Of a stretch of DNA of 64,000 bases, positions 15,961 through 52,964 are shown piece by piece. The notes beneath the pieces are model-generated. The model was not told the DNA's origin and did no database searches. It saw nothing but the letters and a program-made list of their open reading frames with translations. Position 1 is the first letter of the stretch; every line of letters starts with the position of its first letter. Source of the DNA: a virus (taxonomy: Duplodnaviria; Caudoviricetes); IMG/VR virus record IMGVR_UViG_3300029305_005280, one strand, 5' to 3'. A program made the position numbers and the translations under genes.

Positions 15961-17110
15961 TGGAAAGAGAGCTCTGGTATACATAACTACTCTTGATGAA
16001 ATCAAACCCATCGAAGGATATGACAGAGTTGAACATGGTCGTGTTGGCGGTTGGTGGTGTATTATCAATAAAGCCGATAATATGACTGTTGGAGACAAAG
16101 TTGTATACTTTGAGGTTGATAGTAAGGTTCCTGATAAGGACGAACGATTTGCATTTCTTGAGAAGAGACATTATAAGATTAAGACTCTAAAGATGTGTAA
16201 AGTTTTGTCACAGGGTCTTATTATGCCTATTTCCGCATTTCCTGAATTAGAAGGAAAAGATGTAGGAACTGATGTCACTGAGATTCTAAAAGTTGTATAT
16301 GCAGAAGCAGAAGACAATACTCGTAAGAATGGCAACCCTAATGCAAAATATGATTCAATGAAATCACGCCATAAGAAACTATTCAAGAAGCCTTGGGCAA
16401 GATGGATGATGAAACGAGCTTGGGGGAGAAAGGTCATGTTTTTCTTCTTTGGTAAAAAGAAAGATAATCCTCGTGGATTTCCTTCTTTTATTTCGAAGAC
16501 TGATGAAGAACGAATTGAAAACCAGCCCTGGCGACTACAGGAAGATAGAGAATGGTTAACAACTGAAAAGCTTGATGGTACCTCTTGTACATACGCTCTT
16601 GAACGTAAGGGTAGGAATAAATTTGAGTTCTACGTTTGTTCTCGTAATGTAAGACAAGCGGACGAAAATCAAGTTACATATCACGACCATAATATCTATT
16701 GGGACCTTGCATTTAAGTACAATATTGAACAACATCTTAAAGATTATCTTGATTTACATACTGATTACAAGTGGGTATGTATTCAAGGTGAGGGTGTTGG
16801 TTCAGTACAAGGGAACCCACTTAAACTTGACTCTGATGACCTATACATATTCAACTTTAAAACTTCAGAATATGGAAGACACGGCTCATTGGAAGGAAAG
16901 GATATTGTTGAAGGCTGGGGTATGAAATGGGTACCTATCCTTGGTGTTGTCAAACTTCCTGAAACAATGGAAGAAATGAAAGAGCAAGCGGAAGGTAGTT
17001 CAGTTGTAAATCCTAAAGTACTTCGTGAAGGCATCGTTTACAGAAGCCTTGATGGAAAAGAATCATTTAAGAATGTAGCAAATTCATATTTGCTTAAACA
17101 TAATTCATAA
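15950..17110 (+). CDS. RNA ligase (Rnl2/DRB0094-type), probable CTG start
   Basis: TEKLDGTS (motif I), IQGE, EGIVYR, SFK; the frame upstream of ATG 16082 is open and encodes the family N-terminus. Confidence 0.88.
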   Translation: MIIDGKRALVYITTLDEIKPIEGYDRVEHGRVGGWWCIINKADNMTVGDKVVYFEVDSKVPDKDERFAFLEKRHYKIKTLKMCKVLSQGLIMPISAFPELEGKDVGTDVTEILKVVYAEAEDNTRKNGNPNAKYDSMKSRHKKLFKKPWARWMMKRAWGRKVMFFFFGKKKDNPRGFPSFISKTDEERIENQPWRLQEDREWLTTEKLDGTSCTYALERKGRNKFEFYVCSRNVRQADENQVTYHDHNIYWDLAFKYNIEQHLKDYLDLHTDYKWVCIQGEGVGSVQGNPLKLDSDDLYIFNFKTSEYGRHGSLEGKDIVEGWGMKWVPILGVVKLPETMEEMKEQAEGSSVVNPKVLREGIVYRSLDGKESFKNVANSYLLKHNS

Positions 17111-25006: not shown

Positions 25007-25091
25007 GCGGGATTGGTGGAATTGGCAGACACAAGGGACTTAAAATCCCTCGGGTCAAACCGTACCGGTTCAAGTCCGGTATCCCGCACCA
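25007..25091 (+). tRNA. tRNA-Leu(TAA)
   Basis: Cloverleaf, loop CTTAAAA, long variable arm, CCA. Confidence 0.95.
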
Positions 25092-26409: not shown

Positions 26410-26478
26410 AGATTAGTTGAATAATTGCTCGAAAGGGCTTATTATATAAAATAGAAAGATAAGTAAAGGATGAAGAAA

Positions 26479-26777
26479 ATGTTTAAGAAAAAGACAAAAG
26501 TAATTGCCCCCCCCCGACCACTCAGGAAATGATTGCTTCGGCAACAAAGAAGATTGAATCAGATATTGTAGCATATAGTGCACAAAAAGATTCTGCACTG
26601 AGTGTATTTCGACAGACTGCAAATAGACTTGAGTCTGTAAACAAGGGACTTACAAATTCGGTTAAGGACCTTGATACTTTAATGAATTTTGCATGTAAGC
26701 AGAAAGAGTCTGTTGAAAAAGCAATTGCAGATAACGAAGCAGTTCGTAATAAGATTCTTGACATTATCGGAAAATAA
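26479..26777 (+). CDS. Coiled-coil protein, reading frame broken at a C9 tract (26507-26515)
   Basis: RBS-linked ATG 26479 is out of frame with ORF 26529-26777; C7 or C10 would fuse them. Confidence 0.6.
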
Positions 26778-26812
26778 TACATAATGAGGCAATATTTTAT
26801 TGCCTCTGATAT

Positions 26813-26889
26813 GCGGAATTGACGCAACTGGTCAGCGTGTCTCCCTTACAAGGAGAAAGTTATAGGTTCGAGTCCTATATTCCGCACCA
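26813..26889 (+). tRNA. tRNA-Val(TAC)
   Basis: TCTCC-CTTACAA-GGAGA; CCA. Confidence 0.93.
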
Positions 26890-27529
26890 GTTGGAGAGAT
26901 GGTACTACCTTAACTTCACTCCGTAGGGTAACGCTTACAACAAAGATTAGTAAGGTACGCATTTTTGGTTTCAGGTAAGACTTTCTATGGTGTTAATAAA
27001 GAAAGGAAATTAAAGTTGCAGCTGGGTTGGTAAACCTCTTTAACGGGAGAAAGCTTCCTCATTGTAACCAAGTGTAGTTATTAGGTACGACATAAGGCCT
27101 TATGCCGGTATAACAGCACTTGTTTATATATAGAATATGCTTGTGAAAAATTTTGCGTATCATGTAAGGCTGTCCGTTGAGGTTGAGCATATTCATTGCA
27201 TATACTGGTGGGACGGCGCCCAACCCTTAAATGAGTGGCTCACGATATCGATGCCAGTATTCATGTTTTCTATATAACTTTATTTCATATGCATTCCCCT
27301 TTCAATAATACATATAAGATAAAGTTTCGAAGTCCAAGCGGTGAAAGTCCGGCAAGACCTGAAAGAAGGAACTTGGCAAATTACTTTAAACATAAGGTGC
27401 TCCGATATAGCATATAGATACTAGTTCATATATATGCCAGCACTCCAAGTAGACAACTGAGTCGAAGTACGGATTTGATAGAGTCGAGCAGGAGCTAAGT
27501 GGAATTTGAGAAACAGCCTTTATATACTT

Positions 27530-27606
27530 GCAACCGTACATCAGGTGGTTAGATGGCTCGCCTGATAAGCGAGATGTCGAAGGTTCGAGTCCTTCCGGTT
27601 GCACCA
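27530..27606 (+). tRNA. tRNA-Ile(GAT)
   Basis: CTCGC-CTGATAA-GCGAG; CCA. Confidence 0.93.
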
Positions 27607-27858
27607 AATCCTGATTGCTGTCACCAAAACAGAATCATACAAGTGTGTGCTTGTGCACTATTCAAAGTTGGAGACGAATAGTGAAAACATAGACCTCTGA
27701 GCTCCAACAAAGAGTGTCTTATCCGAGTTGTGGGTTGTAGGATATTTGAAACTGAGGCAAGATGGTAGGAAACAAGCAAATAGTCCTTATCTAGTATATA
27801 ATAGAAGACGCGGCATAAAATTTGTAACCGCACTTGTAGTAAGTTTACCTTTATATAT

Positions 27859-27934
27859 GTGCCTGTAGCTCAGTTGGTAGAGCACGTGACTTTTAATCAC
27901 GGGGTCCCGAGTTCGAGCCTCGGCAGGCACACCA
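27859..27934 (+). tRNA. tRNA-Lys(TTT)
   Basis: CGTGA-CTTTTAA-TCACG; CCA. Confidence 0.96.
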
Positions 27935-27940
27935 ATATAT

Positions 27941-28019
27941 GCCTCTGTAGCTCATCTGCGGTCAGAGCGCTGGTCTGAAAAACCAGAGGTTGTCTGTTCG
28001 ACTCAGACCGGAGGCACCA
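27941..28019 (+). tRNA. tRNA-Phe(GAA)
   Basis: CTGGT-CTGAAAA-ACCAG; CCA. Confidence 0.92.
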
Positions 28020-28167
28020 GCGTTGGAAATGAAACTACCCAATGTTTGAGACAAGCTCACAAAGATGCTTGAAGCCCGCAAGGCAAAGTGTTGTCCACAT
28101 CAGTCACTTTAGAGGTGGATAGGTTATAAAGTAGGTATACATATAATATAACTGACGGTGACAATAT

Positions 28168-28237
28168 GGGTGTATACTTTAAGTGGTAAAAACTAATGCT
28201 ATATATTAGATTGCTGGTTCGAGCCCAGCTGCGCCCA
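28168..28237 (+). pseudogene. Degenerate tRNA / tRNA-like RNA
   Basis: Acceptor GGGTGTA/TGCGCCC, T arm GCTGG-TTCGAGC-CCAGC, weak D arm, non-canonical loop, no CCA tail. Confidence 0.65.
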
Positions 28238-28252
28238 AGCTCTCCTATATAT

Positions 28253-28329
28253 GCCGGTGTAGCCGAATTGGCATAGGCGCTTGTCTTAGGAACAAGTTTT
28301 TGCAGGTTCGAGTCCTGTCACCGGTACCA
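28253..28329 (+). tRNA. tRNA-Leu(TAG) lacking the long variable arm
   Basis: CTTGT-CTTAGGA-ACAAG; variable region only TTTTT; CCA. Confidence 0.9.
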
Positions 28330-28443
28330 GCGCTTGTCTTAGCGTGGAAGTTTCAAATATAAGACGTAACGCAAGGGAAGCCAAGGCGTGTTCATTATTA
28401 CGCGAGTAATGACAAAGTGGTGCACCACAAGGCTGCCTCCTAT

Positions 28444-28520
28444 GCCGCAGTGGCTCAGATGGCAAGAGCACTCCGTTCATACCGGAGAGGTCACTGGTTC
28501 AAGGCCAGTCTGCGGCACCA
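28444..28520 (+). tRNA. tRNA-Met(CAT) elongator (or Ile2)
   Basis: CTCCG-TTCATAC-CGGAG; G1-C72; CCA. Confidence 0.88.
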
Positions 28521-28735
28521 GAAGGTCAAGCCCCTTCGTACAAGGCTATGCGTTTAAGCTATGCATTCCGACATAATGCAGAGTTCATAAGTTTATTCTT
28601 TAAAGCTTATCGTGTATGAGGTTTATTACTTTTTGTTACCCAAACCCCACGAAATAGGGCAACCAGCAAAAATCAAAAGCGGAATTGATTTACTTTCGAC
28701 AACATGCAGAAGTACAATGCATGTAAATCATGTAA

Positions 28736-28800
28736 AGAAATGTGTGGTGTAAATTGGTAGCATTCACGATGGGTAAGAGGTTCAATTCCTCTACATTTCT
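28736..28800 (+). ncRNA. Anticodon-less tRNA-like element
   Basis: AGAAATGT/ACATTTCT stem, D arm GTGT-AAATTGGTA-GCAT, T arm AGAGG-TTCAATT-CCTCT, only ~12 nt between D and T arms. Confidence 0.65.
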
Positions 28801-28882
28801 TGACAAGGCATAGAGCAAATGGCCTGCCTATTGCAAGGGCTAATAAATGTGCAGAACCCGTCATACTTAATGCGGGACATAT

Positions 28883-28969
28883 GGGTGGATATACCGTAAG
28901 TGGTAGCGGGGCAGACTGTAAATCTGCTGCCTAACGGCTCGGGTGGTTCGACTCCATCTCCACCCACCA
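28883..28969 (+). tRNA. tRNA-Tyr(GTA)
   Basis: GCAGA-CTGTAAA-TCTGC; long variable arm; CCA. Confidence 0.95.
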
Positions 28970-29190
28970 GAGGGAAGTTGACTTTTTGTATTTCAAACAC
29001 ACCTACTAATAGTGGTAGTAAATACTATAATATATTGTCCTGGCAGACAAAAACCAGTGAAATAAAGAATTGCTGCGGGGTATAAGTGCGTGGTAGTGAC
29101 CGTCGCCTCAACAATGCTTAAGGATATCGTCAAATGCCGATTATTGGGATATAGTAACGAATAAATCTGGGAATAGTTACATAGATTTAT

Positions 29191-29265
29191 CCAGATGTAA
29201 GTCAATGGTAGACGGCGAAGTTTGGGACTTCGTAGCTGGGGGTTCGAATCCCTCCATCTGGACCA
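29191..29265 (+). tRNA. tRNA-Pro(TGG)
   Basis: CGAAG-TTTGGGA-CTTCG; C1-G72; CCA. Confidence 0.93.
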
Positions 29266-29272
29266 TTTATTT

Positions 29273-29347
29273 GCCCTCATAGTTCAATGGATAGAACAAG
29301 GGTCTTCTAAACCCTAAATCTAAGTTCGATTCTTAGTGAGGGTGCCA
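29273..29347 (+). tRNA. tRNA-Arg(TCT)
   Basis: AGGGT-CTTCTAA-ACCCT; CCA. Confidence 0.95.
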
Positions 29348-29665
29348 CTAGACGGATTGAGGTCTTGCATAGGTTAGAAAGTAAAAAGGTACGACACTTT
29401 TCCTATAAACCAGTGACTCACACTGTAGAGACTACTAAGAGCTGTGAGGAAAGTCCGATGTGCTCACAGACGCTCAGACAGTAGGCAGCGACGAATAGGC
29501 CTAGTGAAGATGATAACTTTGATAATCAAATAAAAATCCGGTCCAAAGTAAGCATAATATACTAAGTGGCATACATGAGATATTGGTTGGGCAGTGCTTC
29601 GCCTATTTAATCAAAAGCTAGTGTATGTACCCCCAGTTTTCCGGATGGGTCTGGGTAGTTTATCT

Positions 29666-29756
29666 GGAGGAGTACCCAAGTGGTTGAAGGGTCCGGTCTT
29701 GAAAACCGGTAGGTCGGGCAACCGGCGCGGGAGTTCGAATCTCCCCTCCTCCGCCA
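29666..29756 (+). tRNA. tRNA-Ser(TGA)
   Basis: CCGGT-CTTGAAA-ACCGG; long arm; GCCA. Confidence 0.96.
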
Positions 29757-29866
29757 AATCTAAAACACTTGTGGTTCAAGGTTCATGAGTATTCCGTTCG
29801 ATTCGGAAGTAATAAATGGATGATGTAACAATCTCTCATGTTTTTAGTGGTTCAATTCCACTTTAT

Positions 29867-29956
29867 GGAGCGATGGGTGAGAGGTTGAAACCACCTCCCT
29901 GCTAAGGAGGCGAGGTCTACGGGCCTCCGACAGTTCGAATCTGTCTCGCTCCGCCA
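29867..29956 (+). tRNA. tRNA-Ser(GCT)
   Basis: CCTCC-CTGCTAA-GGAGG; long arm; GCCA. Confidence 0.95.
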
Positions 29957-29961
29957 TATAT

Positions 29962-30050
29962 GGTAGCCGTGGTGGAATTGGTAGACACGCTGGATTGTGG
30001 CTCCAGTACTCTTTTGAGTTGTGAGAGTTCAAGTCTCTCCGGTTACCCCA
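29962..30050 (+). tRNA. tRNA-His(GTG) with a long variable arm
   Basis: G-1:C73, CTGGA-TTGTGGC-TCCAG, extra arm ACTC-TTTT-GAGT, CCA. Confidence 0.88.
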
Positions 30051-30079
30051 GATAAAATATAATAACTGAGGTGTTTACG

Positions 30080-30196
30080 ATGCTAAGAGATAAACTTTAC
30101 TATGAAAATAGAATTAGTTTGCTTTCTAATAGAGCAAAAGAGAATCAAAGAATCATTGCGAAACTAAAAAGAAAGCTAAGACAACTTGAGGCATAA
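30080..30196 (+). CDS. Small basic peptide (38 aa, not in ORF track)
   Basis: GAGGTG RBS; MLRDKLYYENRISLLSNRAKENQRIIAKLKRKLRQLEA. Confidence 0.55.
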   Translation: MLRDKLYYENRISLLSNRAKENQRIIAKLKRKLRQLEA

Positions 30197-30203
30197 TAAC
30201 AGA

Positions 30204-31013
30204 ATGAATCATAATAAATATGGTTGTAAACCTCCTCAAATTGATGTAAGAGACTACAAACTTGCAAAAACCGCAGTTGACGCCTCTTCCTTACCTGTCG
30301 CATATGTTCCTATGCAATTACCAGCAGTTAAAAATCAAAAAAGTGTTTCTTCTTGTGTAGCACATACAACAAGTTCGATTCTTGAATTCCATGATATTGA
30401 AAATGGTAATACATTATCAACTAACTTCATATATGGTATTCAAAAACAATTTTGTGGACATGAAGGCTCAGGAATGTATTTGAGAGATGCTTGTAAAATT
30501 GTTAAAGAATATGGCGATATGCTCGAAAGTGACTGCTCTGGTAACGACGAAATACCTAAGTGCTGGGAGATTGCACAGGATGCCCTTAATAACGATAAAT
30601 GCAAAAAGAATGCACAGGCGTTTAAAGTAAAATCTTATTTCAATTGTTCCAGTAATAATGACATTAAAAGAGCAATCTATGAATACGGGCCTGTTTTATG
30701 TTCTATTAAATGGTATGATACGTTCAAAGTGGATAAAGATGGTGCTCTTGAAGGAGCTCAAAAAGGTGACTATGGTTATCATGCAGTAATGATTTATGGA
30801 TGGAATTCAACAGGATTTTTGTGTCAAAATAGTTGGGGCAAAAATTGGGGCGTAAATGGTAGATTTGTTCTTCCTTATAGTATCCCAGTTGCGGAAGCAA
30901 AGGGCTTAGTCGACGAAGAAACATCAAATATTATTATTCCTAAAAGAAATAAATTTTTAGATTTTATTTATAAGATTGTAAATGCCATTGTTAACTTTTT
31001 CAAAGGTAAGTAG
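30204..31013 (+). CDS. Papain-family (C1) cysteine peptidase
   Basis: NQKSVSSCVA (Gln/Cys), YHAVMIYGW (His), QNSWG..WG..G (Asn). Confidence 0.92.
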   Translation: MNHNKYGCKPPQIDVRDYKLAKTAVDASSLPVAYVPMQLPAVKNQKSVSSCVAHTTSSILEFHDIENGNTLSTNFIYGIQKQFCGHEGSGMYLRDACKIVKEYGDMLESDCSGNDEIPKCWEIAQDALNNDKCKKNAQAFKVKSYFNCSSNNDIKRAIYEYGPVLCSIKWYDTFKVDKDGALEGAQKGDYGYHAVMIYGWNSTGFLCQNSWGKNWGVNGRFVLPYSIPVAEAKGLVDEETSNIIIPKRNKFLDFIYKIVNAIVNFFKGK

Positions 31014-31023
31014 GTGCTAATCA

Positions 31024-31749
31024 ATGAGTGTTGATACATCATTAAAAACCGAAGTATTTGAAAAAGGTGTAAGAAAGAATTCTTTCATTCAGGATAATAA
31101 CAAGTGGTATAATACAACGGGTGTTGGTGGATATTCAACATGTATTGTTGGTAGCCCATCAAGAAGTGGTGCAAATGTTCTTTGCAATTGTGTAGGGCTT
31201 GCTAATGGGGCATTTAATGAAACATATGTTAAATGTAAGCAAACATTAGATTCATCCTTTGTACCTAAACAATATTATGCTTTTACTTCCAATGGTAATA
31301 CGACAATAACAAGAGCAAAATCATTAGGACTAGAAACTATTGACCCTTCAGGTATTCCTCCTCTTGGTGGTTTAATCTCTTGGGGTGGAGGAGCCAATCA
31401 CGTTGCATATATAGCTGATGTTATTGATAATGACACTATAGTTATAGTACAGGCAGGTTATGACACGCCAGTATGGTCTCAGAGAAATACCGCTGATACA
31501 GGTTGGGTATGTGATGCAAGAACTATAAAAAGAGGTTCTTCGAATCTGTGGGCATATCAGAATTCAGTTCCAAGTGGCACTGTTTGTCAAGGATTTGTTG
31601 TTAATCCTGCAGTAGCTGATGCAATAGAAGCAATATATGGAGTTAGACTTGGTAATCAATTATATTCTGCTCATATATGGAAAGATGGTAAATGGAATAA
31701 AACAATTCCTCACCTGTGGTCAAATGGTAAATGGAATAAAACAAATTAA
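31024..31749 (+). CDS. CHAP-domain peptidoglycan hydrolase
   Basis: NCVGLA (Cys), P.LGGLISW..GANHVAYI (His), QGFV. Confidence 0.8.
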   Translation: MSVDTSLKTEVFEKGVRKNSFIQDNNKWYNTTGVGGYSTCIVGSPSRSGANVLCNCVGLANGAFNETYVKCKQTLDSSFVPKQYYAFTSNGNTTITRAKSLGLETIDPSGIPPLGGLISWGGGANHVAYIADVIDNDTIVIVQAGYDTPVWSQRNTADTGWVCDARTIKRGSSNLWAYQNSVPSGTVCQGFVVNPAVADAIEAIYGVRLGNQLYSAHIWKDGKWNKTIPHLWSNGKWNKTN

Positions 31750-31906
31750 AAATTATTAAAGATTTAGTTGAATCTTCTCAATTTACATAATATAATTATT
31801 GTATAATATAAAGTAGCATAAAACACAAGATTGCAAAAAAACTTGTTTGTGAGAGTTTTAAACCATCGGTGCCTGCACTGGTAGTATTTTAAATCACAAC
31901 CTATAT

Positions 31907-31982
31907 TCCCACTTAGCTCAGTCGGTAGAGCACTCGGCTGTTAACCAAGCGGTCGCAGGTTCGAGCCCTGCAGTGGGAGCCA
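31907..31982 (+). tRNA. tRNA-Asn(GTT)
   Basis: Loop CTGTTAA (one stem mismatch); GCCA. Confidence 0.93.
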
Positions 31983-32117
31983 CAGGTCCACTGTTAGGTG
32001 TTTTCATACGACCTGTACAAATAAACATTTTAGAAAACATGTGGTGCTTAAAGGTATGGTAAGACATATGTGCTTACGAAGCGTTTCGACCAATGTCCGA
32101 CTCGAAACGAATCATTT

Positions 32118-32192
32118 GCTGGCGTGGCTCAATGGTAGAGCAGCTGATTTGTAATCAGCAGGTTGCAGGTTCGACTCCTGTCGCCAGCTCCA
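32118..32192 (+). tRNA. tRNA-Thr(TGT)
   Basis: GCTGA-TTTGTAA-TCAGC; CCA. Confidence 0.96.
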
Positions 32193-32196
32193 ATAT

Positions 32197-32272
32197 GGGG
32201 CCATAACTCAACTGGGAGAGTGCCTGCTTTGCAAGCAGGATGTTAGGGGTTCAAGTCCCCTTGGTTCCACCA
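32197..32272 (+). tRNA. tRNA-Ala(TGC)
   Basis: CCTGC-TTTGCAA-GCAGG; G3:U70; CCA. Confidence 0.95.
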
Positions 32273-32344
32273 ATAGTTTCATAGAGTTCTAATAAACTAT
32301 GTGCTTGTCACTTTAAGAAGTGAGTGGGTATAAAGTCCCACAAA

Positions 32345-33003
32345 TTCGTACCTTGAAAGATGTATACAATATAACTCAGTGATAAACATAAGGTACGCTC
32401 CTTATGCTGAGAGGAGCCCTAATTCTTCGGAAACGATTCCACGACAGAGAAACGTAAGAGGATACTCGGAAAAATGTCGTTACTTTGAGTAGTGATATTC
32501 AAAGTTGCAGAAGTAAACTTCAATGGAATGGGCTCTGTGCTGAGGTTATTGCAAGTAATGGTAAAGTGGGCATCGCACTCGTAATAGAGGCTATCGTTAA
32601 TACCGATAGCTGAATCCAAGTTAGGATTTTAGCTGGTGACTGTAATCAAACCTTGTGAAATACCACCAAGAGTGTTGGTCGTGATGTTCTTGAAAAAGAA
32701 AGTATAAGGTGCTCATCCAGTTTCCGAGTAGCCGAAGACCAGTGGTAATTGAAGAAACAAATAATTTAGAAAGTAAGATTATCAAATTCTTCTGAATAGA
32801 CGGTGAAAGGTGCAGGTAATCAGTCCTGCTATAGCTTGTGTGGTCCAGGGTCCCGCCGTTAACGGGAAGCCCAGACTTCGTGGCAAGAAGTTAGGGGTCG
32901 CTACCCGAAGCTCAGACTTGTCATCTATATGACCGAATATACTTGAAAATAATTATCAGTAATCCGAAGGGATAGTTGTTGTATATATCTTTAAAGGTAC
33001 GAA
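32345..33003 (+). ncRNA. Large structured RNA, ROOL-like
   Basis: 659 nt, no credible ORF, closed by a long terminal helix TTCGTACCTTGAAAGATGTATACAA / TTGTATATATCTTTAAAGGTACGAA; internal hairpins GCAGG-TAATCAGT-CCTGC and GGG-GTCGCTA-CCC; flanked by tRNAs. Confidence 0.75.
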
Positions 33004-33043
33004 AAGTGTGCCGTTCGCTTGCGGCTAATCAAGCGAGTTATAT

Positions 33044-33119
33044 CGCGGAGTGATGCAGTGGTCAGCAATTTGGGCTCATAACCCAAAAGTCAGTGGTTCG
33101 AATCCACTCTCCGCAACCA
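33044..33119 (+). tRNA. Initiator tRNA-fMet(CAT)
   Basis: C1:A72 mismatch, GGG/CCC in anticodon stem, loop CTCATAA. Confidence 0.94.
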
Positions 33120-33210
33120 GCTGTTTAGGTTTTACATTTGTTGTACAGTTCAGCGTGTCAAACTACAAACAAATGCGGTTTATAGGCATTGTCCGATAAC
33201 AATGACTTAT

Positions 33211-33285
33211 GGTCTCTTGGTGAAGTGGTTATCATATGTGCCTGTCACGCACAAGTCACGAGTTCAATTCTCGTAGGGACCGCCA
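33211..33285 (+). tRNA. tRNA-Asp(GTC)
   Basis: TGTGC-CTGTCAC-GCACA; GCCA. Confidence 0.93.
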
Positions 33286-34470: not shown

Positions 34471-36120
34471 ATGAGTAAATTATCTAAAGCAGTTGAAGCA
34501 ATGCACGAAGATGTAGTGCTTCGTAAAGATGAAACAGAAGTTAACTTTATGGGTGGTGACTCCTACAAGTTAAATCCGCTTGAAACCTTGAAGATGATTA
34601 GTGCTTCTTCCATCTTTGGTGAACCTTCTTACTACCGTGACGGCAGAAGTGCAAAGAAAACACTTTACAAGGTAGACAGGCTTGTAAAAGATTGGCTCAT
34701 TATTCCTGACCGCTATGTAGGTAAAAATACAGAGCAAATCATGGAGTCTGCAATTGATGCAGCACTGGAGTATGATTTTGGCGCGACGCTTGAGTGGGCA
34801 ACTACTTTGCGTAATGATTTCTTTATGCGTCTTAATCCTCAAGTCATTATGGTAAGAGCAGCTATGCATCCTAACCGTAAAGAATGGACCGAGGCTAATC
34901 CTGGCAAATTCAATGAATATAATCAGATGGTTATGAAGCGTGCAGATGAGCCTATGTCTCAGATGGCTTACTATCTGTATCTTAATAAAGGTAAGAAGAA
35001 TAAGATTCCTTCTGTTATTAAACGCTCTTGGGCTGACAATCTGAGCAAGCTGAATCGTTACAAGGTTGCTAAATACAAGAATCATGAAATTGGAATGATT
35101 AACGGTGTACGCCTTTGCCACGCAAATTCCAAAGTTCTTGATGAACTGATGACCAGTGGCACCGTTGAAGTTTCTGAGGATTCTAAAACTTGGGAAAATC
35201 TTCGTTCAGAAGGAAAGACCTGGGAAGAAATCTTTGATACTGTAGATATGGGCCATATGGCATTACTGAGAAATATCAGAGGCGTTTTCTCCGAATCTGA
35301 CAACAAGGACCTTTTTGTAAGATACATGACTAAACTTAAATCAACTGTAAAAGATGGAAAGCAATTTCCTTTCAGATACTGGTCTGCAATCCAAGCTGTT
35401 CAAGGCAGTAACTGTAACTTTAAACCCTTAATCATTGATGCCCTTGAAGAATGTATGGATATTGCGGTTGATAACTATCCCAAGCTAAGAGGCAAAACAA
35501 TGTGCCTATCAGATAACTCTGGCTCTGCTTGGGGAGCTGTAACAACTGAGTACGGCTCTGTGACTGTTGCAAATATTGATAATCTTTCCTCTGTTATTAC
35601 TGCAGCTTGTTCCGATGAAGGATATGTTGGTAAGTTTGGTGACAGATTGATTACCCATCCTATCAGCAAACGCAGAGGTATTCTGTCTCAAGCAGAAGCA
35701 ATTACTCGTGATAGAGACCGAGATGTTGGCGGTGGTACTGAAGGCGGTATCTGGGAATTCTTCAGAAGTGCTATTGATAAGAAAGAACACTGGGACAATA
35801 TCTTTATCTATTCTGATATGCAAGCAGGACATGGTGGTCTGTATGGCACAAGTTCTCAATACAATGACTATCGTCGTAGAGGATATGATATTGGAAACCA
35901 TATCAATGTGTTCAAACTTGTACAGGATTATAGAAAAATTGTTAATCCCAAAGTAAATGTATTCTCTATTCAAACAGCAGGTTATACTAATAACTTGATG
36001 CCTGAGATGGCATACAGAACTGCAATTTTGAGTGGTTGGACTGGCAAGGAAGCTTCTTTTGCGGAAGAGTACATTCGTCAGTGGGATGAAATTGAAACAA
36101 AAAATTCTAAAAAGAATTAG
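34471..36120 (+). CDS. rsr: Ro60/Rsr-like TROVE-domain RNA-binding protein
   Basis: NFMGG..Y start, EPSYY, VAKYK, TWE, MALLRNIR, QFPFRYWSA, vWA MIDAS-like SDNSGS, YSDMQ, LSGW; own promoter 34406-34437. Confidence 0.93.
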   Translation: MSKLSKAVEAMHEDVVLRKDETEVNFMGGDSYKLNPLETLKMISASSIFGEPSYYRDGRSAKKTLYKVDRLVKDWLIIPDRYVGKNTEQIMESAIDAALEYDFGATLEWATTLRNDFFMRLNPQVIMVRAAMHPNRKEWTEANPGKFNEYNQMVMKRADEPMSQMAYYLYLNKGKKNKIPSVIKRSWADNLSKLNRYKVAKYKNHEIGMINGVRLCHANSKVLDELMTSGTVEVSEDSKTWENLRSEGKTWEEIFDTVDMGHMALLRNIRGVFSESDNKDLFVRYMTKLKSTVKDGKQFPFRYWSAIQAVQGSNCNFKPLIIDALEECMDIAVDNYPKLRGKTMCLSDNSGSAWGAVTTEYGSVTVANIDNLSSVITAACSDEGYVGKFGDRLITHPISKRRGILSQAEAITRDRDRDVGGGTEGGIWEFFRSAIDKKEHWDNIFIYSDMQAGHGGLYGTSSQYNDYRRRGYDIGNHINVFKLVQDYRKIVNPKVNVFSIQTAGYTNNLMPEMAYRTAILSGWTGKEASFAEEYIRQWDEIETKNSKKN

Positions 36121-36125
36121 TGATT

Positions 36126-36157
36126 TAGTTGATAAATGAAGCATAAAGCTTTATAAT
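36126..36157 (+). promoter_or_regulatory. Promoter for the Y-RNA-like array
   Basis: TAGTTGA-N19-TATAAT; no ORF downstream. Confidence 0.8.
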
Positions 36158-36189
36158 ATAAATGTAGAAAGATAATTAAATATTGACAA

Positions 36190-36296
36190 CTGCTTGATGC
36201 AGAGACAGATGCTTACTTCATTGGTTGAAAATTTGTCTTGAAAACGAATACAGCAGGTTCGAGTCCTGTATTAGCATCTTCATTATTCTCAAGCAG
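36190..36296 (+). ncRNA. Y RNA (YrlA-like) unit 1, Ser(UGA) anticodon arm + T arm cargo
   Basis: CTGCTTGA/TCAAGCAG, AGATGCT/AGCATCT; GATGCAG, TTACTTC, TATTCTC; ATTTGT-CTTGAAA-ACGAAT; GCAGG-TTCGAGT-CCTGT. Confidence 0.85.
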
Positions 36297-36317
36297 GACC
36301 TTCCTTTATGGAATAGT

Positions 36318-36421
36318 ATTTCTGATGCAGTAAATCAAGTTACTTCAGGCTTTGACTTTTAATCAAAATACCTAATAGACTTAAAATCTATCAATACACT
36401 TGATTTGATATTCTCAGAAAT
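36318..36421 (+). ncRNA. Y RNA-like unit 2, two bare anticodon arms Lys(UUU) + Leu(UAA)
   Basis: ATTTCTGA/TCAGAAAT, AAATCAAGT/ACTTGATTT; TTTGA-CTTTTAA-TCAAA and ATAGA-CTTAAAA-TCTAT. Confidence 0.85.
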
Positions 36422-36441
36422 TATTGTATAAAATATATAAC

Positions 36442-36609
36442 ATGTGTGAAGCAGGGAGATTAGTTACTTCGAAAGGTTTGGTCTGTTAAACCCGAAGTCG
36501 TTGGTTCGAATCCAACCATTGTTAGTAACGGCGAGTGAAAGCAATGTAACTCAGCTGGAAAGAGTGCGTGTAAATTTAGAAATTTACTAATTTCATTATT
36601 CTCACACAT
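36442..36609 (+). ncRNA. Y RNA-like unit 3, circularly permuted Asn(GUU)-type tRNA cargo
   Basis: ATGTGTGA/TCACACAT, GAGATTAGT/ACTAATTTC; order anticodon loop CTGTTAA, T arm, acceptor CATTGT/GCAATG, D arm. Confidence 0.85.
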
Positions 36610-36624
36610 CTATTTAAAAGTAAT

Positions 36625-36774
36625 ATTTACGATGCAGTCATATCAGTTACTTCGTTGCATTGGGTGCCTGGTGTCATTGGTTCGAGTCCAATATTCCCGC
36701 CCATTTATGCGGGAATTAGCTCAGTCGGTAGAGCACAGTAGAAATTATTAGCTGATATATTTATTCTCGTAAAT
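36625..36774 (+). ncRNA. Y RNA-like unit 4, circularly permuted Pro(UGG)-type tRNA cargo
   Basis: ATTTACGA/TCGTAAAT, ATATCAGT/GCTGATAT; loop ATTGGGT, T arm, ATTCCCGC-CCA-TTTAT-GCGGGAAT, D arm TAGCTCAGTCGGTAGAGCA. Confidence 0.88.
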
Positions 36775-36791
36775 TTTTAATTTGATGTTAT

Positions 36792-36912
36792 AGCTGAAGC
36801 AGACTACAGAGTTACTTCAAATACATAGTACTAATGTTATATTATATAAAAGAACAAAATATGTTAGCCGTGAGCTTACATAGATAAACACTCTGTAACT
36901 TAATTCTCAGCT
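36792..36912 (+). ncRNA. Y RNA-like unit 5, AT-rich cargo
   Basis: AGCTGA/TCAGCT, TACAGAGT/ACTCTGTA; GAAGCAG, TTACTTC, AATTCTC; no tRNA motif inside. Confidence 0.78.
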
Positions 36913-36918
36913 TTATTT

Positions 36919-36995
36919 GCGGGATTGGTGTTTAATGGTTAGCATCTCAGTCTTCCAAACTGATGGTGAGGGTTCGAGTCCCTTATCCCGCTCCA
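36919..36995 (+). tRNA. tRNA-Gly(TCC)
   Basis: TCAGT-CTTCCAA-ACTGA; U73; CCA. Confidence 0.95.
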
Positions 36996-47626: not shown

Positions 47627-48325
47627 TGTTAGAGCCTTTAGCAGTAAAACTGCTTGATAAACACTATGAGCTTGAGGATGCTCTAACTCTTGAGGGGAAT
47701 TCTTTTTCTTTGAGAGTACGTTTAATCTTAAGAAGATTAAAAGCACACAAGGCAGCTAAAAAACTAGAGTCTTTATATAGGAAGTGATGTTGATGGGCAG
47801 CTACAAAGGATTACCAAAGGATACGACTATTGTATTCCCATCTTTGATAAGAACAGGACATGATATTATTTTAAAGGTTGTTTCTTATAATGAAGAGACA
47901 GAGTCATATGAAGTTGCAAGGGTGTATAAAGATAGAATCACACCAACAACTGAAAAGTTAACAGTTAAATCAATGGAGGCAAGAAACCCCTTGATTACTC
48001 TACCGGGAGGTATCCATGAAGCATAATGAAATGTTGTTTCAAGAAGCAATAGAATTTATTACACCTTTGCGTCCTATCAAAGTTGTATGGAATGATAAAA
48101 CAATTATTTACAATGATTATGACAGTGACAATGTGTGCACTGTTTTTGAAGACGGTACTAAGGCGTATGGAGAAATTTTCCCTCTTCAAGCTGTTATCTC
48201 TCAACGCCTTGGTCAAACTTTGGAAAAGTATGATGTGTTTGTAAAGAGTTTTAATGTTAAGATTGTTGATTATCATCATACGCTAGTATACTTGTATGGA
48301 TACAAAAAACGGAGGAAAAAGAAAA

Positions 48326-49159
48326 ATGACTAAAGATTCACTTGGTGACCGTATGAAGCATAACTACGAAAATCGTAGTAAAACATATCTAACGAGAAGA
48401 ATGCCTGTTATTATTAGATTAGATGGAAAAGCATTTCATTCATTCACTCGAGGATTTGAAAGACCTTATGATACTGTATTTCATACTGCAATGAACAATA
48501 CTTTGCAGTATCTATGCGAGAATATTCAAGGGTGTCGATTAGGTTATACACAGTCCGACGAAATAACATTATTATTAACTGATTATGAAAAATTAACAAC
48601 AGACGCTTGGTTTGATTATGCGGTACAAAAGATGTGCTCTGTCGCTGCATCTATGGCTACAATGGCCTTTAATAGATATTTTATGGATGCAGTAAATGTT
48701 GCTTACAATGAATTTACAAATGGTACTACTGATATTCAATCGTTCTACCCTAATATTAAGGATTTTGACAGATTGTTTGATACACGTTTTAGTAGAATCA
48801 ATACCGCTTGTTTTGATGAACGATGCTTTAATGTTCCTAAAGAGGAAGTTGCAAATTGTTTTATCTGGAGACAGCAAGATGCAACAAGAAATGCAATTCA
48901 AATGCTTGGGCAAACACATTTTTCTGATAAACAACTTGATGGTAAATCAAATAGCGAAGTTCAGGATATGTTAATGTTAGAAAAAGGTATCAATTTCAAC
49001 GATATGGCAACAGAATTCAAACGTGGTGTGTGCTGTTGTAAAATAGCAAATCCTGAGGAATCAACAACTATCGGTGTTCTGATTAGACCTCAATGGGTAA
49101 TTGATACTGAAATTCCTATCTTTACTCAAGATAGAAACTATATTGAGAGGTTTGTTTAA
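48326..49159 (+). CDS. thg1: tRNA-His guanylyltransferase-like (Thg1/TLP) 3'-5' polymerase
   Basis: IIRLDGKAFH.FT, YTQSDEI, FD.R.F..P, WRQQDA.RN. Confidence 0.94.
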   Translation: MTKDSLGDRMKHNYENRSKTYLTRRMPVIIRLDGKAFHSFTRGFERPYDTVFHTAMNNTLQYLCENIQGCRLGYTQSDEITLLLTDYEKLTTDAWFDYAVQKMCSVAASMATMAFNRYFMDAVNVAYNEFTNGTTDIQSFYPNIKDFDRLFDTRFSRINTACFDERCFNVPKEEVANCFIWRQQDATRNAIQMLGQTHFSDKQLDGKSNSEVQDMLMLEKGINFNDMATEFKRGVCCCKIANPEESTTIGVLIRPQWVIDTEIPIFTQDRNYIERFV

Positions 49160-49954
49160 TTGAAATTATTTGTAGTTAGCGATATACATTCTTTCTATAC
49201 ACCATTGAAAGAATCACTTGATAAAGCAGGGTTTGACCCCACCAATGAAAATCATTGGTTAATCAGCTGTGGAGACGCATTTGATAGGGGTCCACAAAGT
49301 AAAGAAGTTCTTGAATTTTTAATGAGTCTTGAGAGAAAGGTTCTTGTCAAAGGTAATCATGATATATTACTTAAAGAACTTTGTATGCGTGAATTTCCTT
49401 ACTCACATGATAAATCAAATGGTACTGTCAAAACTGTGATTAGTTTTGGTCACTTTGATGGACGTAATTTTGATGAATGCTGCCGAACAACCTGGAATAA
49501 AACTGCAAGATACAGAGAGTTATTAGTAAATTATTTTGAAACTCAAAATTATATCTTTGTTCATAGCTGGATACCCACTAATGTTAAATATGAAGGAGAA
49601 ATGAAACCTTGGTATCAACAAGGCAAGACTCTTACTTGGATGGAAGATTGGCGTAATGCTAATGACGTCGAATGGGAAGAGGCTATGTGGGGTAACCCCT
49701 TCAAGAGATGGCAAGAAGGTCTTAATAAAACAGGTAAAATAATAGTGTTTGGGCACTGGCACTGTTCTGCGGGGCACGCTATGCTGCACGAAGTAAAGGT
49801 ATCAGAAAATGAATCAGTAGGTACAATATCTGAATTTGAAGATGATGCCGTCTGGGACCCTTTTATTCATGATAATATTATTGGTATTGACCGATGCACA
49901 GCACACACTGGTGAAGTAAATGTGTTAGTACTGGAGGACGATTTTCTTGAGTGA
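49160..49954 (+). CDS. Metallophosphoesterase (Ser/Thr phosphatase-like)
   Basis: SDIHS, GDAFDRG, GNHD, FVHS, GHWH, ID. Confidence 0.9.
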   Translation: MKLFVVSDIHSFYTPLKESLDKAGFDPTNENHWLISCGDAFDRGPQSKEVLEFLMSLERKVLVKGNHDILLKELCMREFPYSHDKSNGTVKTVISFGHFDGRNFDECCRTTWNKTARYRELLVNYFETQNYIFVHSWIPTNVKYEGEMKPWYQQGKTLTWMEDWRNANDVEWEEAMWGNPFKRWQEGLNKTGKIIVFGHWHCSAGHAMLHEVKVSENESVGTISEFEDDAVWDPFIHDNIIGIDRCTAHTGEVNVLVLEDDFLE

Positions 49955-51995: not shown

Positions 51996-52964
51996 GTGGA
52001 AACCTTTGTACCCACAAATTTAAAAATTCCCGAGTTTGTTATGCTTGTAGGTTTGCCAGGAAGTGGTAAATCATATCTAGCTGATATTCTTTTTGCTAAG
52101 AAATACAGCATACATAGCAGTGATGAAATAAGAAAAGAGTTATCAGGTGACATCAATAATCAAAATATAAATTCACAAGTATTTCAAACTTTACATAGAA
52201 GAATAAAAGATGATTTAAAAAATGGTATTAGTTGTGTTTATGATGCAACTAATATTAACTATAAAAAACGAATGTCATTTCTGCAAGAATTAAACAAGAT
52301 TCAATGCTTTAAGAGATGTATTATTATTGCAACCCCATATGAAGTTTGTTTAATGCAAAATGAGCAACGGGAACGTAAGGTTCCTGAGCAAGTTATTGAA
52401 CGCATGTATCGTAATTTTGATGTTCCTTATTATTTTGAGGGCTGGGACAATATTGAATTATTCTATGCAAAGGATTCATACAAAGAGGCTTATGGTGACT
52501 GGTCTTACTTTGTATTTGATACCCTTACATATAATCAGGATAACAAATATCATATCGAAACACTTGGAGAACATTGTCGTAAGTGTAAAGAATATGTAGA
52601 AAATTACAATAATAAAACAACTCTTAAAGGAACGCATATTGCTCACGCTCAAAGAGTCGCTGCTGCATTACATGATTGTGGTAAGCCTTTTTGCAAAACA
52701 TTCGAAGATACAAAAGGTAATATCACTGAAAGTGCACATTATTACAATCATGAAAAAGTAGGTAGTTATAACTCTTTATTTTATGAAACTGAAACTCAGT
52801 TAACACCGATTAGATTGTATATTGCAGCATTGATACGATGGCACATGCAAATGCATTTTATTGATAATCAACCACACGCAAAAGGAAAGTATATAAAGTT
52901 ATTTGGTGAAGAATTCTACAAAGAGCTGGAGGTATTACATAATGGAGACAAACAAGCACATTAA
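51996..52964 (+). CDS. Polynucleotide kinase (AAA_33) fused to HD phosphohydrolase
   Basis: GLPGSGKS, SSD.IR, DATN, R.R.VP; H...L.EH, LHDCGKP, HYY.HE..G, WHM. Confidence 0.88.
   Translation: METFVPTNLKIPEFVMLVGLPGSGKSYLADILFAKKYSIHSSDEIRKELSGDINNQNINSQVFQTLHRRIKDDLKNGISCVYDATNINYKKRMSFLQELNKIQCFKRCIIIATPYEVCLMQNEQRERKVPEQVIERMYRNFDVPYYFEGWDNIELFYAKDSYKEAYGDWSYFVFDTLTYNQDNKYHIETLGEHCRKCKEYVENYNNKTTLKGTHIAHAQRVAAALHDCGKPFCKTFEDTKGNITESAHYYNHEKVGSYNSLFYETETQLTPIRLYIAALIRWHMQMHFIDNQPHAKGKYIKLFGEEFYKELEVLHNGDKQAH

What the first reader, a model, noticed from the sequence alone, without database searches (positions are those of the whole stretch)
36351..36391. One small RNA carrying two naked anticodon stem-loops (Lys UUU and Leu UAA)
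Seen: unit 2 has no T, D or acceptor arm, only TTTGA-CTTTTAA-TCAAA and ATAGA-CTTAAAA-TCTAT, each a 5-bp stem with a 7-nt loop. They share TGACTTTTAATCA with this phage's tRNA-Lys and GACTTAAAATC with its tRNA-Leu(TAA), while the outer pairs differ but still pair. Unit 1 likewise shares GTCTTGAAAAC with tRNA-Ser(TGA). Inference: the anticodon loop itself is under selection, unlike the T/D elbow mimicry known for YrlA. This is the strongest support for a decoy or sensor role.
Basis: partly seen in the sequence, partly recalled or inferred. Interest (0 to 1): 0.88.

Follow-up and report, generated by a model that had tools for sequence, protein, structure and literature searches.

The report
Ro60-partner RNA displaying two anticodon arms
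A gut phage encodes, next to its Ro60 RNA-binding protein, a small RNA whose only cargo is two copies of tRNA anticodon arms, one of them letter-for-letter the lysine-tRNA arm of many gut bacteria, which suggests a bait for proteins that read or cut tRNA anticodons.

Summary
Observation confirmed. Positions 36351-36367 and 36375-36391 are two hairpins with 5-bp stems and 7-nt loops (CUUUUAA, CUUAAAA). They are the whole cargo of unit 2 (36318-36421) in a five-unit Y-RNA-like array, which lies just after a Ro60/TROVE gene in a tRNA-rich phage from animal gut.

- **Hairpin 1.** Ten orthologues, whose Ro60 proteins are 73-91% identical, fold the same way. Its 25 nt are almost invariant. Its 17-nt arm equals the tRNA-Lys(UUU) anticodon arm of at least 117 bacterial species.
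- **Hairpin 2.** It keeps the loop frame but changes the anticodon (UAA, UGA, UCC). It is lost or replaced in two lineages.
- **Across the family.** Anticodon-type hairpins are about 35-fold enriched over shuffles in the cargo. Variation concentrates on positions 34-36 (15 against 5 extra states, p = 0.004).
- **Context.** The window also encodes an RNA ligase, a P-loop kinase, a phosphoesterase and a Thg1-like enzyme.

So mimicry of the anticodon arm is real and under selection. Published YrlA RNAs lack an anticodon loop.

The decoy or bait function against host anticodon nucleases is plausible but untested (about 0.4). Expression rests only on weak metatranscriptome contigs.

This scan noted similar anticodon-displaying partner RNAs of Ro60-like proteins on other phage DNA before. 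I found no paper describing them.

The parts
34471..36120 (+). Ro60/TROVE-family gene (549 aa) with a conserved DxSxS (MIDAS-like) motif. It is the presumed protein partner of the RNA array.
   Evidence: Pfam TROVE scores 27.4 bits against a cut-off of 23. It is 52% identical to Bacillus phage G gp540, annotated as a TROVE ribonucleoprotein. A profile of 11 homologues hits Thermus phage Ro60 9KOP/9L5Y at E = 2.4e-27. D348, S350 and S352 are invariant.
36129..36157 (+). Sigma-70-like promoter (TTGATA-17-TATAAT) in front of the array.
   Evidence: 11 of 12 consensus matches. This is a consensus match only. The number of such sites in the region does not exceed that in shuffles.
36190..36296 (+). 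Unit 1: the same handle carrying a D-like arm, an anticodon arm (TTTGT-CTTGAAA-ACGAA, Ser UGA) and a T arm. The handle stem stands in place of the acceptor stem.
   Evidence: Fold. ARAGORN miscalls it tRNA-Ser. Rfam tRNA scores 26.3 bits, below the cut-off. GTCTTGAAAAC is shared with tRNA-Ser.
36318..36421 (+). Unit 2, the RNA of the finding. Outer stem 36318-36325 / 36414-36421. Internal loop with UGCAG and GAUAUUC. Inner stem 36331-36340 / 36398-36407. Conserved GUUACUUC. The cargo is the two hairpins.
   Evidence: Folds. Alignment A1 has 10 orthologues. The inner stem covaries (AAATCAAG/CTTGATTT, GAAATGAG/CTCATTTC, TAAGTGAG/CTTGCTTT, GACTAGAG/CTCTATTC). The outer stem and handle motifs are invariant.
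36347..36373 (+). Hairpin 1 with its base. AGG (36347-36349) pairs with CCU (36371-36373). The arm UUUGA-CUUUUAA-UCAAA (36351-36367) copies the tRNA-Lys(UUU) anticodon arm.
   Evidence: One loop change among 10 orthologues (U35C in L002), plus one stem change (L201) and a few in the flanks. The 17-mer preceded by AGAGC-N is the anticodon arm of tRNA-Lys(UUU) genes in at least 117 species-representative genomes. The phage's own tRNA-Lys stem is CGTGA/TCACG.
36375..36391 (+). Hairpin 2: AUAGA-CUUAAAA-UCUAU. Its loop and two closing pairs equal those of tRNA-Leu(UAA).
   Evidence: Orthologue loops are CTTAAAA x4, CTTGAAA, TTTGAAA, CTTCCAC and CTTCCAA. The hairpin is absent in L205 and replaced by a hairpin with a 5-nt loop in L208. 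The stem does not match cellular tRNA-Leu stems in the sample examined.
36442..36609 (+). Unit 3: the handle carrying a permuted tRNA-like cargo (weak anticodon-type loop CTGTTAA, T arm, closed acceptor-like hairpin, D arm).
   Evidence: Rfam YrlA scores 28.2 bits, below the gathering score of 69. The orthologous loops change anticodon: GUU, UUU and GCU.
36625..36774 (+). Unit 4: the handle carrying a YrlA-like cargo (T arm, acceptor-like hairpin, D arm).
   Evidence: Rfam YrlA scores 32.8 bits, E = 6e-5, below the gathering score.
36792..36912 (+). Unit 5: the same handle carrying an AT-rich cargo with no recognisable tRNA part.
36919..36995 (+). tRNA-Gly(UCC), which closes the array.
27859..27934 (+). 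The phage's tRNA-Lys(UUU), used as comparator (arm CGTGA-CTTTTAA-TCACG).
25007..25091 (+). The phage's tRNA-Leu(UAA), used as comparator (arm AGGGA-CTTAAAA-TCCCT).
16082..17110 (+). RNA ligase (Rnl2-type). It is context for tRNA damage and repair.
   Evidence: Pfam RNA_ligase E = 1.6e-15, plus the PHA02142 OB domain.
48296..49954 (+). Thg1-like 3'-5' nucleotidyltransferase (48296-49159) and metallophosphoesterase (49160-49954).
   Evidence: Pfam Thg1 E = 7.7e-29 and Metallophos E = 9.6e-17.
51996..52964 (+). P-loop kinase of the AAA_33 type, a candidate polynucleotide kinase.
   Evidence: Pfam AAA_33 E = 3.3e-20.

Best explanation
Unit 2 is one of five tandem partner RNAs (Y-RNA-like) of the phage's Ro60 protein. 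A conserved handle presumably seats the RNA on the Ro60 ring. The handle is made of the closing stem, an internal loop with UGCAG and AUUCUC, an inner stem and GUUACUUC.

The handle displays a cargo that consists only of two tRNA anticodon-arm mimics. Hairpin 1 is an exact copy of a cellular tRNA-Lys(UUU) anticodon arm. Hairpin 2 is an anticodon loop whose three coding letters differ between related phages.

The most likely function is that the RNA is a protein-binding mimic. It would act as a bait or decoy, held and stabilised by Ro60, for factors that recognise tRNA anticodon arms. Host anticodon nucleases used in anti-phage defence are the prime candidates. It would work alongside the phage's own tRNA set and its RNA-repair enzymes.

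Shown: the anatomy, the conservation, the covariation, the identity with real anticodon arms, and the linkage to Ro60. Inferred: binding to Ro60, expression as a discrete RNA, and the decoy function.
For: - **Anatomy and fold.**
- **Linkage to Ro60.** All 94 units found in 54 sequences (the window and 53 Ro60 loci) lie on the Ro60 strand and none on the other. The protein belongs to the Ro60 family of the Thermus phage protein that binds Y-like RNAs (PMC12135203).
- **Enrichment.** Anticodon-type hairpins number 22 against 0.6 expected. Their density is about 22-27 times that of surrounding DNA. 34 of 97 unique cargos carry one, and 20 of those have no T-loop.
- **Hairpin 1.** It is almost invariant across orthologues whose Ro60 proteins are only 73-91% identical, while the inner handle stem covaries. 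Its 17-mer equals the arm of at least 117 cellular tRNA-Lys genes, many from Ruminococcus, Oscillospiraceae and uncultured gut Bacilli. That fits the animal-gut habitat.
- **Loop variation.** It concentrates on positions 34-36: 15 extra states in 3 columns against 5 in 4 columns, p = 0.0037. A37 never changes.
- **Phage tRNA sets.** The related phage G002 has no tRNA-Lys, tRNA-Leu(UAA) or tRNA-Arg(UCU). It carries C33-variant tRNA-Gly and tRNA-Ser loops, while its partner RNAs show the canonical loops.
- **Context.** The window encodes an RNA ligase, a kinase, a phosphoesterase and a Thg1-like enzyme.
[quoted passage not shown] That string is kept in hairpin 1, in its UCU variant, and in the GUU variant of L005.
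Against: - There is no functional or binding data of any kind.
- Expression rests on metatranscriptome contigs 90-95% identical to the window, which could derive from DNA.
- A decoy would have to compete with abundant cellular tRNA.
- AriB also needs D-loop contacts, which a bare arm lacks.
- The hairpin stems are AU-rich and weak. The two hairpins alone fold at -4.3 kcal/mol, z = -1.2.
- Hairpin 2 is lost in L205 and replaced in L208.
- Bacillus phage G, the only cultured relative, has five units with the same handle but no anticodon-type hairpin.
- The Rfam YrlA model does not recognise unit 2.
- The host is unknown, so host mimicry is inferred from habitat only.
Confidence: 0.4

Rival explanations
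1. The RNA is an adaptor or tether rather than a decoy. The anticodon arms would recruit a tRNA-handling enzyme to Ro60, as Y RNA tethers PNPase in Deinococcus. Candidates are the phage's own ligase, kinase or Thg1-like repair enzymes, or host enzymes such as lysyl-tRNA synthetase or the makers of xm5U34, t6A37 or i6A37. Ro60 would then be directed to damaged or misfolded tRNAs.
For: - Tethering is the established logic of Y RNAs (PMC4201824; PMC12135203).
- YrlA is modified by tRNA enzymes.
- Repair genes lie in the window.
- The displayed loops keep the determinants of A37 modification, U36-A37 or A36-A37-A38 (enzyme rules from my own knowledge).
- All four anticodons seen in unit 2 (UUU, UAA, UCU, UCC) belong to tRNAs that carry xm5U34 in model bacteria (my own knowledge).
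Against: - No partner enzyme is identified.
- The repair genes are 12-20 kb away and were not checked for co-occurrence with the array.
- The U35C change in L002 would hurt recognition by lysyl-tRNA synthetase.
- The variety of anticodons argues against a single enzyme partner.
Confidence: 0.25
2. The RNA is a damage sensor. The anticodon arms are sacrificial substrates. When a host nuclease cuts them, the RNA leaves or reshapes Ro60. That opens Ro60's cavity, or triggers a phage response, only when tRNAs are under attack.
For: - Y RNAs are described as gates of the Ro60 cavity (reviews cited).
- In Salmonella the rsr-yrlA-rtcBA operon responds to damaged tRNAs (PMC7790460, abstract).
- The loops are exact copies of natural substrates.
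Against: - This is purely an analogy.
- No signalling component is identified near the array.
- The evidence is the same as for the decoy model and does not separate the two.
Confidence: 0.1
3. The hairpins are an evolutionary relic. The cargos descend from tRNA genes, and the hairpins persist only as stable structural filler. The U-turn loop is kept because it is a good hairpin cap, not because anything reads it.
For: - Units 1, 3 and 4 are plainly tRNA-derived.
- The anticodon letters vary freely in hairpin 2.
- Hairpin 2 can be lost.
- Phage G units lack such hairpins.
Against: - Hairpin 1 is almost invariant at the nucleotide level, stem included, while neighbouring stems covary and the rest of the cargo diverges.
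- Anticodon-only cargos arose in many lineages: 20 unique modules.
- Two different arms in tandem cannot come from the decay of one tRNA.
- Variant loops are again exact natural anticodon loops, 7 of 8 in hairpin 2.
Confidence: 0.1
4. The hairpins are an RNA-RNA pairing module. The two loops would kiss each other, since UUUUAA and UUAAAA are mutually complementary, or would pair with codon-like sequences, for instance in the ribosomal decoding site.
For: In the window, L001, L203 and L207 the two loops are perfectly complementary over 6 nt (read directly from the sequences). Isolated anticodon arms bind the 30S A site (my own knowledge).
Against: The complementarity is lost in L002 (UUCUAA/UUCCAA), L204, L206 and L201, while the loop frame is kept. 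No messenger partner is identified.
Confidence: 0.05

Closest known systems
YrlA / Y RNAs of bacteria and phages (Rfam RF02553; Chen et al. 2014, PMC4201824; structure 10.1101/312249)
   Same: It is encoded next to a Ro60 gene. The 5' and 3' ends form a closing stem with an internal loop. The distal cargo mimics tRNA. Several RNAs occur per locus. Phage examples are known, including Bacillus phage G.
   Different: YrlA mimics the T/D elbow and the acceptor, and 'lacks the anticodon loop'. Unit 2 has only anticodon arms and no elbow. The YrlA model does not hit unit 2, and it hits units 3 and 4 only below threshold. The handle motifs (GAUGCAG, GUUACUUC, AUUCUC) are specific to this phage group.
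Deinococcus radiodurans Yrn1
   Same: The Y stem takes the place of the acceptor stem, and a possible 'anticodon arm' with a 5-bp stem was noted (PMC4201824). Unit 1 of this array has the same orientation.
   Different: The Yrn1 loop has 6 nt and matches no tRNA. Here the loops have 7 nt and are identical to real anticodon loops, and unit 2 lacks all other tRNA parts.
Thermus phage phiLo Ro60 with Yrl1/Yrl2 (PMC12135203; PDB 9KOP, 9L5Y)
   Same: The protein family is homologous (profile E = 2.4e-27). It is a phage Ro60 with adjacent Y-like RNAs, proposed to subvert host RNA machinery.
   Different: Yrl1 and Yrl2 were described by a stem-bulge-stem with a CGAA motif. tRNA is mentioned only twice in that paper, and no tRNA or anticodon mimicry appears in the passages I read.
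Nuclease-resistant phage tRNAs (T5 tRNA-Lys, tRNA-Thr and tRNA-Asn against PARIS AriB; PMC12409363)
   Same: They answer the same presumed threat, host cleavage of anticodon arms, and involve the same tRNA identities (Lys UUU, Asn GUU, Thr). The authors raise the idea that viral tRNAs may also inhibit the nuclease.
   Different: Those are functional tRNAs that replace cut ones and carry escape mutations. Unit 2 cannot be charged, and it carries the unmutated cellular-type arm.
Partner RNAs of Ro60-like proteins displaying anticodon loops, noted by this scan in other phages (AI notes e1-5656911, e1-5643112, e1-5402594)
   Same: A shared handle carries a copy of a tRNA anticodon arm. The coding letters change while the loop frame stays. 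The RNAs are linked to a Ro60-shaped protein.
   Different: Those notes describe a different handle (a clamp helix plus ACAGCAA) and often a more divergent protein. They are unpublished AI notes, not independent evidence.

Membership tests
Y RNA (Ro60 partner RNA) | Encoded beside a Ro60/TROVE gene, on the same strand | tested here: met
   The array starts 70 nt after the Ro60 stop codon. All 94 units in the 54 sequences scanned lie on the Ro60 strand.
Y RNA (Ro60 partner RNA) | 5' and 3' ends pair into a long stem interrupted by a conserved internal loop or bulge, the Ro60 binding site | tested here: met
   The fold has an 8-bp outer stem, an internal loop and a 10-bp inner stem. All 10 orthologues fold alike, and the inner stem covaries. 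Whether this loop is the Ro60 site is inferred.
Y RNA (Ro60 partner RNA) | Physical binding to Ro60 | not testable with these tools
   This needs immunoprecipitation or a gel-shift assay.
YrlA (Rfam RF02553) | Score at or above the family's gathering threshold (69 bits) | tested here: not met
   Unit 2 gets no hit even at E <= 10. Units 3 and 4 score 28.2 and 32.8 bits.
YrlA (Rfam RF02553) | tRNA-like T arm, D arm and closed acceptor-like stem in the cargo | tested here: not met
   Unit 2 has no TTCRA T-loop and no D arm, only two anticodon-type hairpins.
tRNA | Cloverleaf with acceptor stem and 3' end, detectable by ARAGORN or Rfam RF00005 | tested here: not met
   Neither tool calls unit 2.
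tRNA anticodon arm (as a motif) | 5-bp stem and 7-nt loop with Y32, U33, purine 37, and a loop sequence found in real tRNAs | tested here: met
   Both hairpins qualify. Hairpin 1 matches cellular tRNA-Lys at 17 of 17 positions. The hairpin 2 loop equals the cellular and phage tRNA-Leu(UAA) loop.
Anticodon-nuclease decoy (functional class) | Binds or is cut by an anticodon nuclease and relieves the defence | not testable with these tools
   Only context is available: RNA-repair genes and literature on the susceptibility of isolated anticodon arms.

The most novel reading that the evidence does not exclude
Phage Ro60 particles are a modular counter-defence platform. Each array RNA shows a different piece of tRNA. 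The anticodon-only RNAs are traps for host anticodon nucleases of the PrrC, RloC, AriB or Cas13 kind. The swapping of the three anticodon letters between related phages would record an arms race over which tRNA the local hosts cut.
Probability: 0.3. Interest if true: 0.9.

Novelty: new variant of a known kind. Interest (0 to 1): 0.72.

Why it matters
The function of bacterial and phage Ro60/Y-RNA particles is still largely open. The known tRNA mimicry stops at the elbow and acceptor. A partner RNA whose only cargo is an exact lysine-tRNA anticodon arm points to a concrete class of binding partners, namely proteins that read anticodon arms. tRNA-cutting immune systems are now recognised as widespread, so the link is timely.

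The finding gives a directly testable hypothesis for what phage Ro60 is for. It may also reveal an RNA-based anti-defence strategy that complements resistant phage tRNAs and RNA repair. The Ro60 protein family is large: 3,344 relatives at E <= 1e-100.

Tried and rejected
- **Direct DNA search in phage records.** The array found nothing in 50,697 phage records.
- **Generic handle pattern in IMG/VR.** It returned mostly single, probably chance, matches.
- **18-mer specific to unit 2.** It found only contigs already in hand in IMG/VR and only chance matches in the metagenome collection. Orthologues came instead from Ro60 protein relatives.
- **Metatranscriptomes.** Four RNA runs hold contigs 90-95% identical to the window over the Ro60 gene and the array, for example 35713-36923 in one contig. 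Contigs cannot show ends, strand or level, and DNA carry-over is possible. I do not count this as proof of expression.
- **Single-sequence search of the PDB** with the Ro60 protein gave nothing. A profile was needed.
- **Kissing-loop idea.** Rejected because the loop complementarity is not conserved.
- **Terminator idea.** Rejected because the terminator scan found no site at either hairpin.
- **'ASLs mirror the phage's own tRNAs'.** Rejected for phage G002.
- **Bacillus phage G.** It has the same handle but no anticodon-type cargo, so it cannot serve directly as a model for this cargo.
- **Stem matches for other hairpins.** I looked for hairpin 2 and unit 1 stems in cellular tRNAs of 120 loci and found none. 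Only hairpin 1 is a whole-arm copy.
- **Not run.** Structure prediction of the protein and complex prediction. The latter takes no RNA.

Full report
**What is there.** The window is a phage region. It holds 23 tRNA genes at 25007-33285 and a ROOL RNA at 32351-32994. A 549-aa gene follows at 34471-36120. It passes the Pfam TROVE cut-off and is 52% identical to Bacillus phage G gp540. As a profile of 11 homologues it matches the solved Thermus phage Ro60 at E = 2.4e-27. A DxSxS motif is invariant.

Directly after this gene, behind a TTGATA-17-TATAAT site, come five tandem units and then tRNA-Gly. Every unit has the same handle. It consists of a closing stem, [A/U]GCAG, an inner stem and GUUACUUC on the 5' side, then the inner-stem complement, AUUCUC and the closing-stem complement on the 3' side. 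The cargo between the two sides differs:
- Unit 1 carries a D-like arm, an anticodon arm and a T arm.
- Units 3 and 4 carry permuted, YrlA-like tRNA bodies. Rfam YrlA scores 28 and 33 bits, below threshold.
- Unit 5 carries nothing recognisable.
- Unit 2, the finding, carries only two hairpins.

**Check of the observation.** The two hairpins lie exactly where stated. They share the stated strings with the phage's tRNA-Lys and tRNA-Leu(UAA), and unit 1 shares its string with tRNA-Ser(UGA). Each string occurs only at those two places in 64 kb.

The free fold of unit 2 gives the handle plus the two 5-bp/7-nt hairpins. Hairpin 1 is extended by AGG/CCU (-18 kcal/mol, z = -2.5).

**Is it more than chance?**
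- In 68 unique cargos from 53 Ro60 loci and the window, hairpins with a stem of at least 4 bp and a CT...AA loop number 22. Shuffles give 0.61 +/- 0.75.
- Density on the RNA strand of units is 3.8 per kb. It is 0.22 per kb on the opposite strand and 0.14-0.18 per kb in other DNA of the loci. Real tRNA genes have 6.3 per kb.
- All units lie on the Ro60 strand.
- After adding eight more loci, 34 of 97 unique cargos carry such a hairpin, and 20 of those have no T-loop.
- Lys UUU is the most often displayed (13 unit variants). Next come Ser UGA (9), Leu UAA (5) and Asn GUU (5).

**Orthologues of unit 2.** The 18-mer search found only contigs I already held. I therefore fetched DNA beside close Ro60 relatives. 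Ten orthologues resulted, with Ro60 proteins 73-91% identical. All fold into the same architecture without constraints.
- The inner stem covaries, while the closing stem and handle motifs are invariant.
- The 25 nt of hairpin 1 (GGCUUUGACUUUUAAUCAAAAUACC) are almost invariant, stem included. The only loop change is U35C in L002, which gives an Arg UCU loop.
- Hairpin 2 is plastic. Its loops are CUUAAAA in four, CUUGAAA or UUUGAAA in two, and CUUCCAA or CUUCCAC in two. In several of these the stem AUAGA/UCUAU is unchanged. The hairpin is missing in L205 and replaced by another hairpin in L208.

**Where the loops vary.** I compared six sets of orthologous anticodon-type loops: hairpins 1 and 2 of unit 2, two unit-1 types and two unit-3 types. 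The three anticodon columns hold 15 extra states and the four frame columns hold 5 (one-sided binomial p = 0.0037). A37 never varies, and U33 varies once. It is not met.

**Whose tRNA is copied?**
- The phage's own tRNA-Lys has the stem CGTGA/TCACG. The tRNA-Lys genes of four related phages have other stems again.
- The 17-mer of hairpin 1, in the context of a D stem, is the anticodon arm of bona fide tRNA-Lys(UUU) genes in at least 117 species-representative genomes. Many are Ruminococcus, Oscillospiraceae, Erysipelotrichaceae and uncultured gut Bacilli.
- The window's DNA is found in animal faecal and gut metagenomes from 15 studies.
- The other displayed arms share only the 7-nt loop with cellular tRNAs, plus two closing pairs for Leu.
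- The complete related phage G002 lacks tRNA-Lys, tRNA-Leu(UAA) and tRNA-Arg(UCU). Its tRNA-Gly and tRNA-Ser(UGA) have unusual C33 loops, while its partner RNAs show the canonical loops.

So the cargo is not a copy of the phage's own tRNA set. A cellular model for hairpin 1 is plausible, but the host is unknown.

**Context.** The window encodes an Rnl2-type RNA ligase, a Thg1-like enzyme, a metallophosphoesterase and an AAA_33 kinase. This is the kind of toolkit phages use to mend cut tRNAs. T4 Pnkp/Rnl1 against PrrC is the established example (my own knowledge).

**Literature.**
- Y RNAs beside Ro60 occur in more than 250 bacteria and phages and mimic tRNA (PMC4201824).
- The YrlA structure 'lacks the anticodon loop' (10.1101/312249).
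- Only D. radiodurans Yrn1 was modelled with a possible anticodon arm, and its loop has 6 nt.
- A phage Ro60 binds two adjacent Y-like RNAs and host PNPase (PMC12135203).
- PARIS AriB cuts tRNA-Lys(UUU), tRNA-Thr and tRNA-Asn and reads U36AAUC|A41 (PMC12409363). Hairpin 1 and its UCU and GUU variants keep that string.
- A Cas13 enzyme cuts isolated anticodon stem-loops (PMC13692257).
- Three searches found no paper on Y RNAs that display anticodon arms.

**Interpretation.** The identity as a Ro60 partner RNA with an anticodon-arm cargo is well supported, at about 0.9.

For function I favour a protein-binding mimic, a bait or decoy for anticodon-reading factors and above all host anticodon nucleases, at 0.4. 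Three observations lead me there. The arm is copied exactly and kept invariant. The identities shown are those that known defence nucleases hit. The phage invests in tRNAs and RNA repair.

An adaptor for tRNA enzymes (0.25), a cleavage sensor (0.1), a relic (0.1) and RNA-RNA pairing (0.05) remain open.

Weak points are these. There are no binding or expression data, only contig-level RNA cover. A decoy would compete with abundant tRNA. Hairpin 2 can be lost. Phage G has the handle without such cargo.

**Relation to earlier notes of this scan.** First-stage notes on this same window describe the array and the permuted tRNAs. Follow-up notes on other phage genomes report partner RNAs of Ro60-like proteins that display anticodon loops with changing coding letters, though on a different handle. 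I tested the claim independently on this family. Those notes are not independent evidence.

Noticed in passing
window 32351-32994: A full-length ROOL RNA (Rfam RF03087, 284 bits) sits inside the tRNA array, 1.5 kb upstream of the Ro60 gene.
   Followed up: no
window 25290-25364; L195/L196 (phage G002): Some phage tRNAs have C at the near-universal U33. Examples are the window's tRNA-Glu loop CCTTCAA, and in G002 tRNA-Gly CCTCCGA, tRNA-Ser(UGA) CCTGAAA and tRNA-Ala CCTGCAA. The partner RNAs of the same phages show the canonical loops. These may be nuclease-escape variants.
   Followed up: partly
window 16082-17110, 48296-49954, 51996-52964: An RNA-repair-type gene set: RNA ligase, Thg1-like enzyme, metallophosphoesterase and AAA_33 kinase. 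I did not check whether it co-occurs with the Ro60 array in related phages.
   Followed up: partly
window 36210-36278: ARAGORN calls unit 1 a tRNA-Ser(UGA). It lacks an acceptor stem and is embedded in the Y-like handle, so annotation pipelines will report it as a false tRNA.
   Followed up: yes
L009 about 2075-2115: An anticodon-only unit with loop CTTTAAA. Its anticodon UUA would read the stop codon UAA, and no normal tRNA has it.
   Followed up: no
L017, L019, L023, L026, L028, L029, L031, L033, L034, L045 (upstream of Ro60): More distant Ro60 loci carry a different conserved RNA of about 170 nt. It starts after the same TTACTTC motif and ends in ...GATTACCTC-loop-GAGGGACCA, a hairpin followed by ACCA, like a tRNA 3' end.
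   Followed up: no
L329 2260-2930 (Bacillus phage G, upstream of gp540): Five units with the same handle (GAAGCGG/GATGCGG ... AGTTACTTC ... ATCTC) lie in the 1-kb gap before the Ro60 gene of this cultured phage. None has an anticodon-type or T-loop hairpin by my criteria.
   Followed up: partly
L001 versus L203, unit 3: Two closely related phages differ in the unit-3 loop by a single letter in the middle of the anticodon: CTGTTAA (Asn) against CTGCTAA (Ser GCU).
   Followed up: partly
window 36792-36912: The cargo of unit 5 is AT-rich with no recognisable tRNA element. Its orthologues diverge strongly.
   Followed up: no
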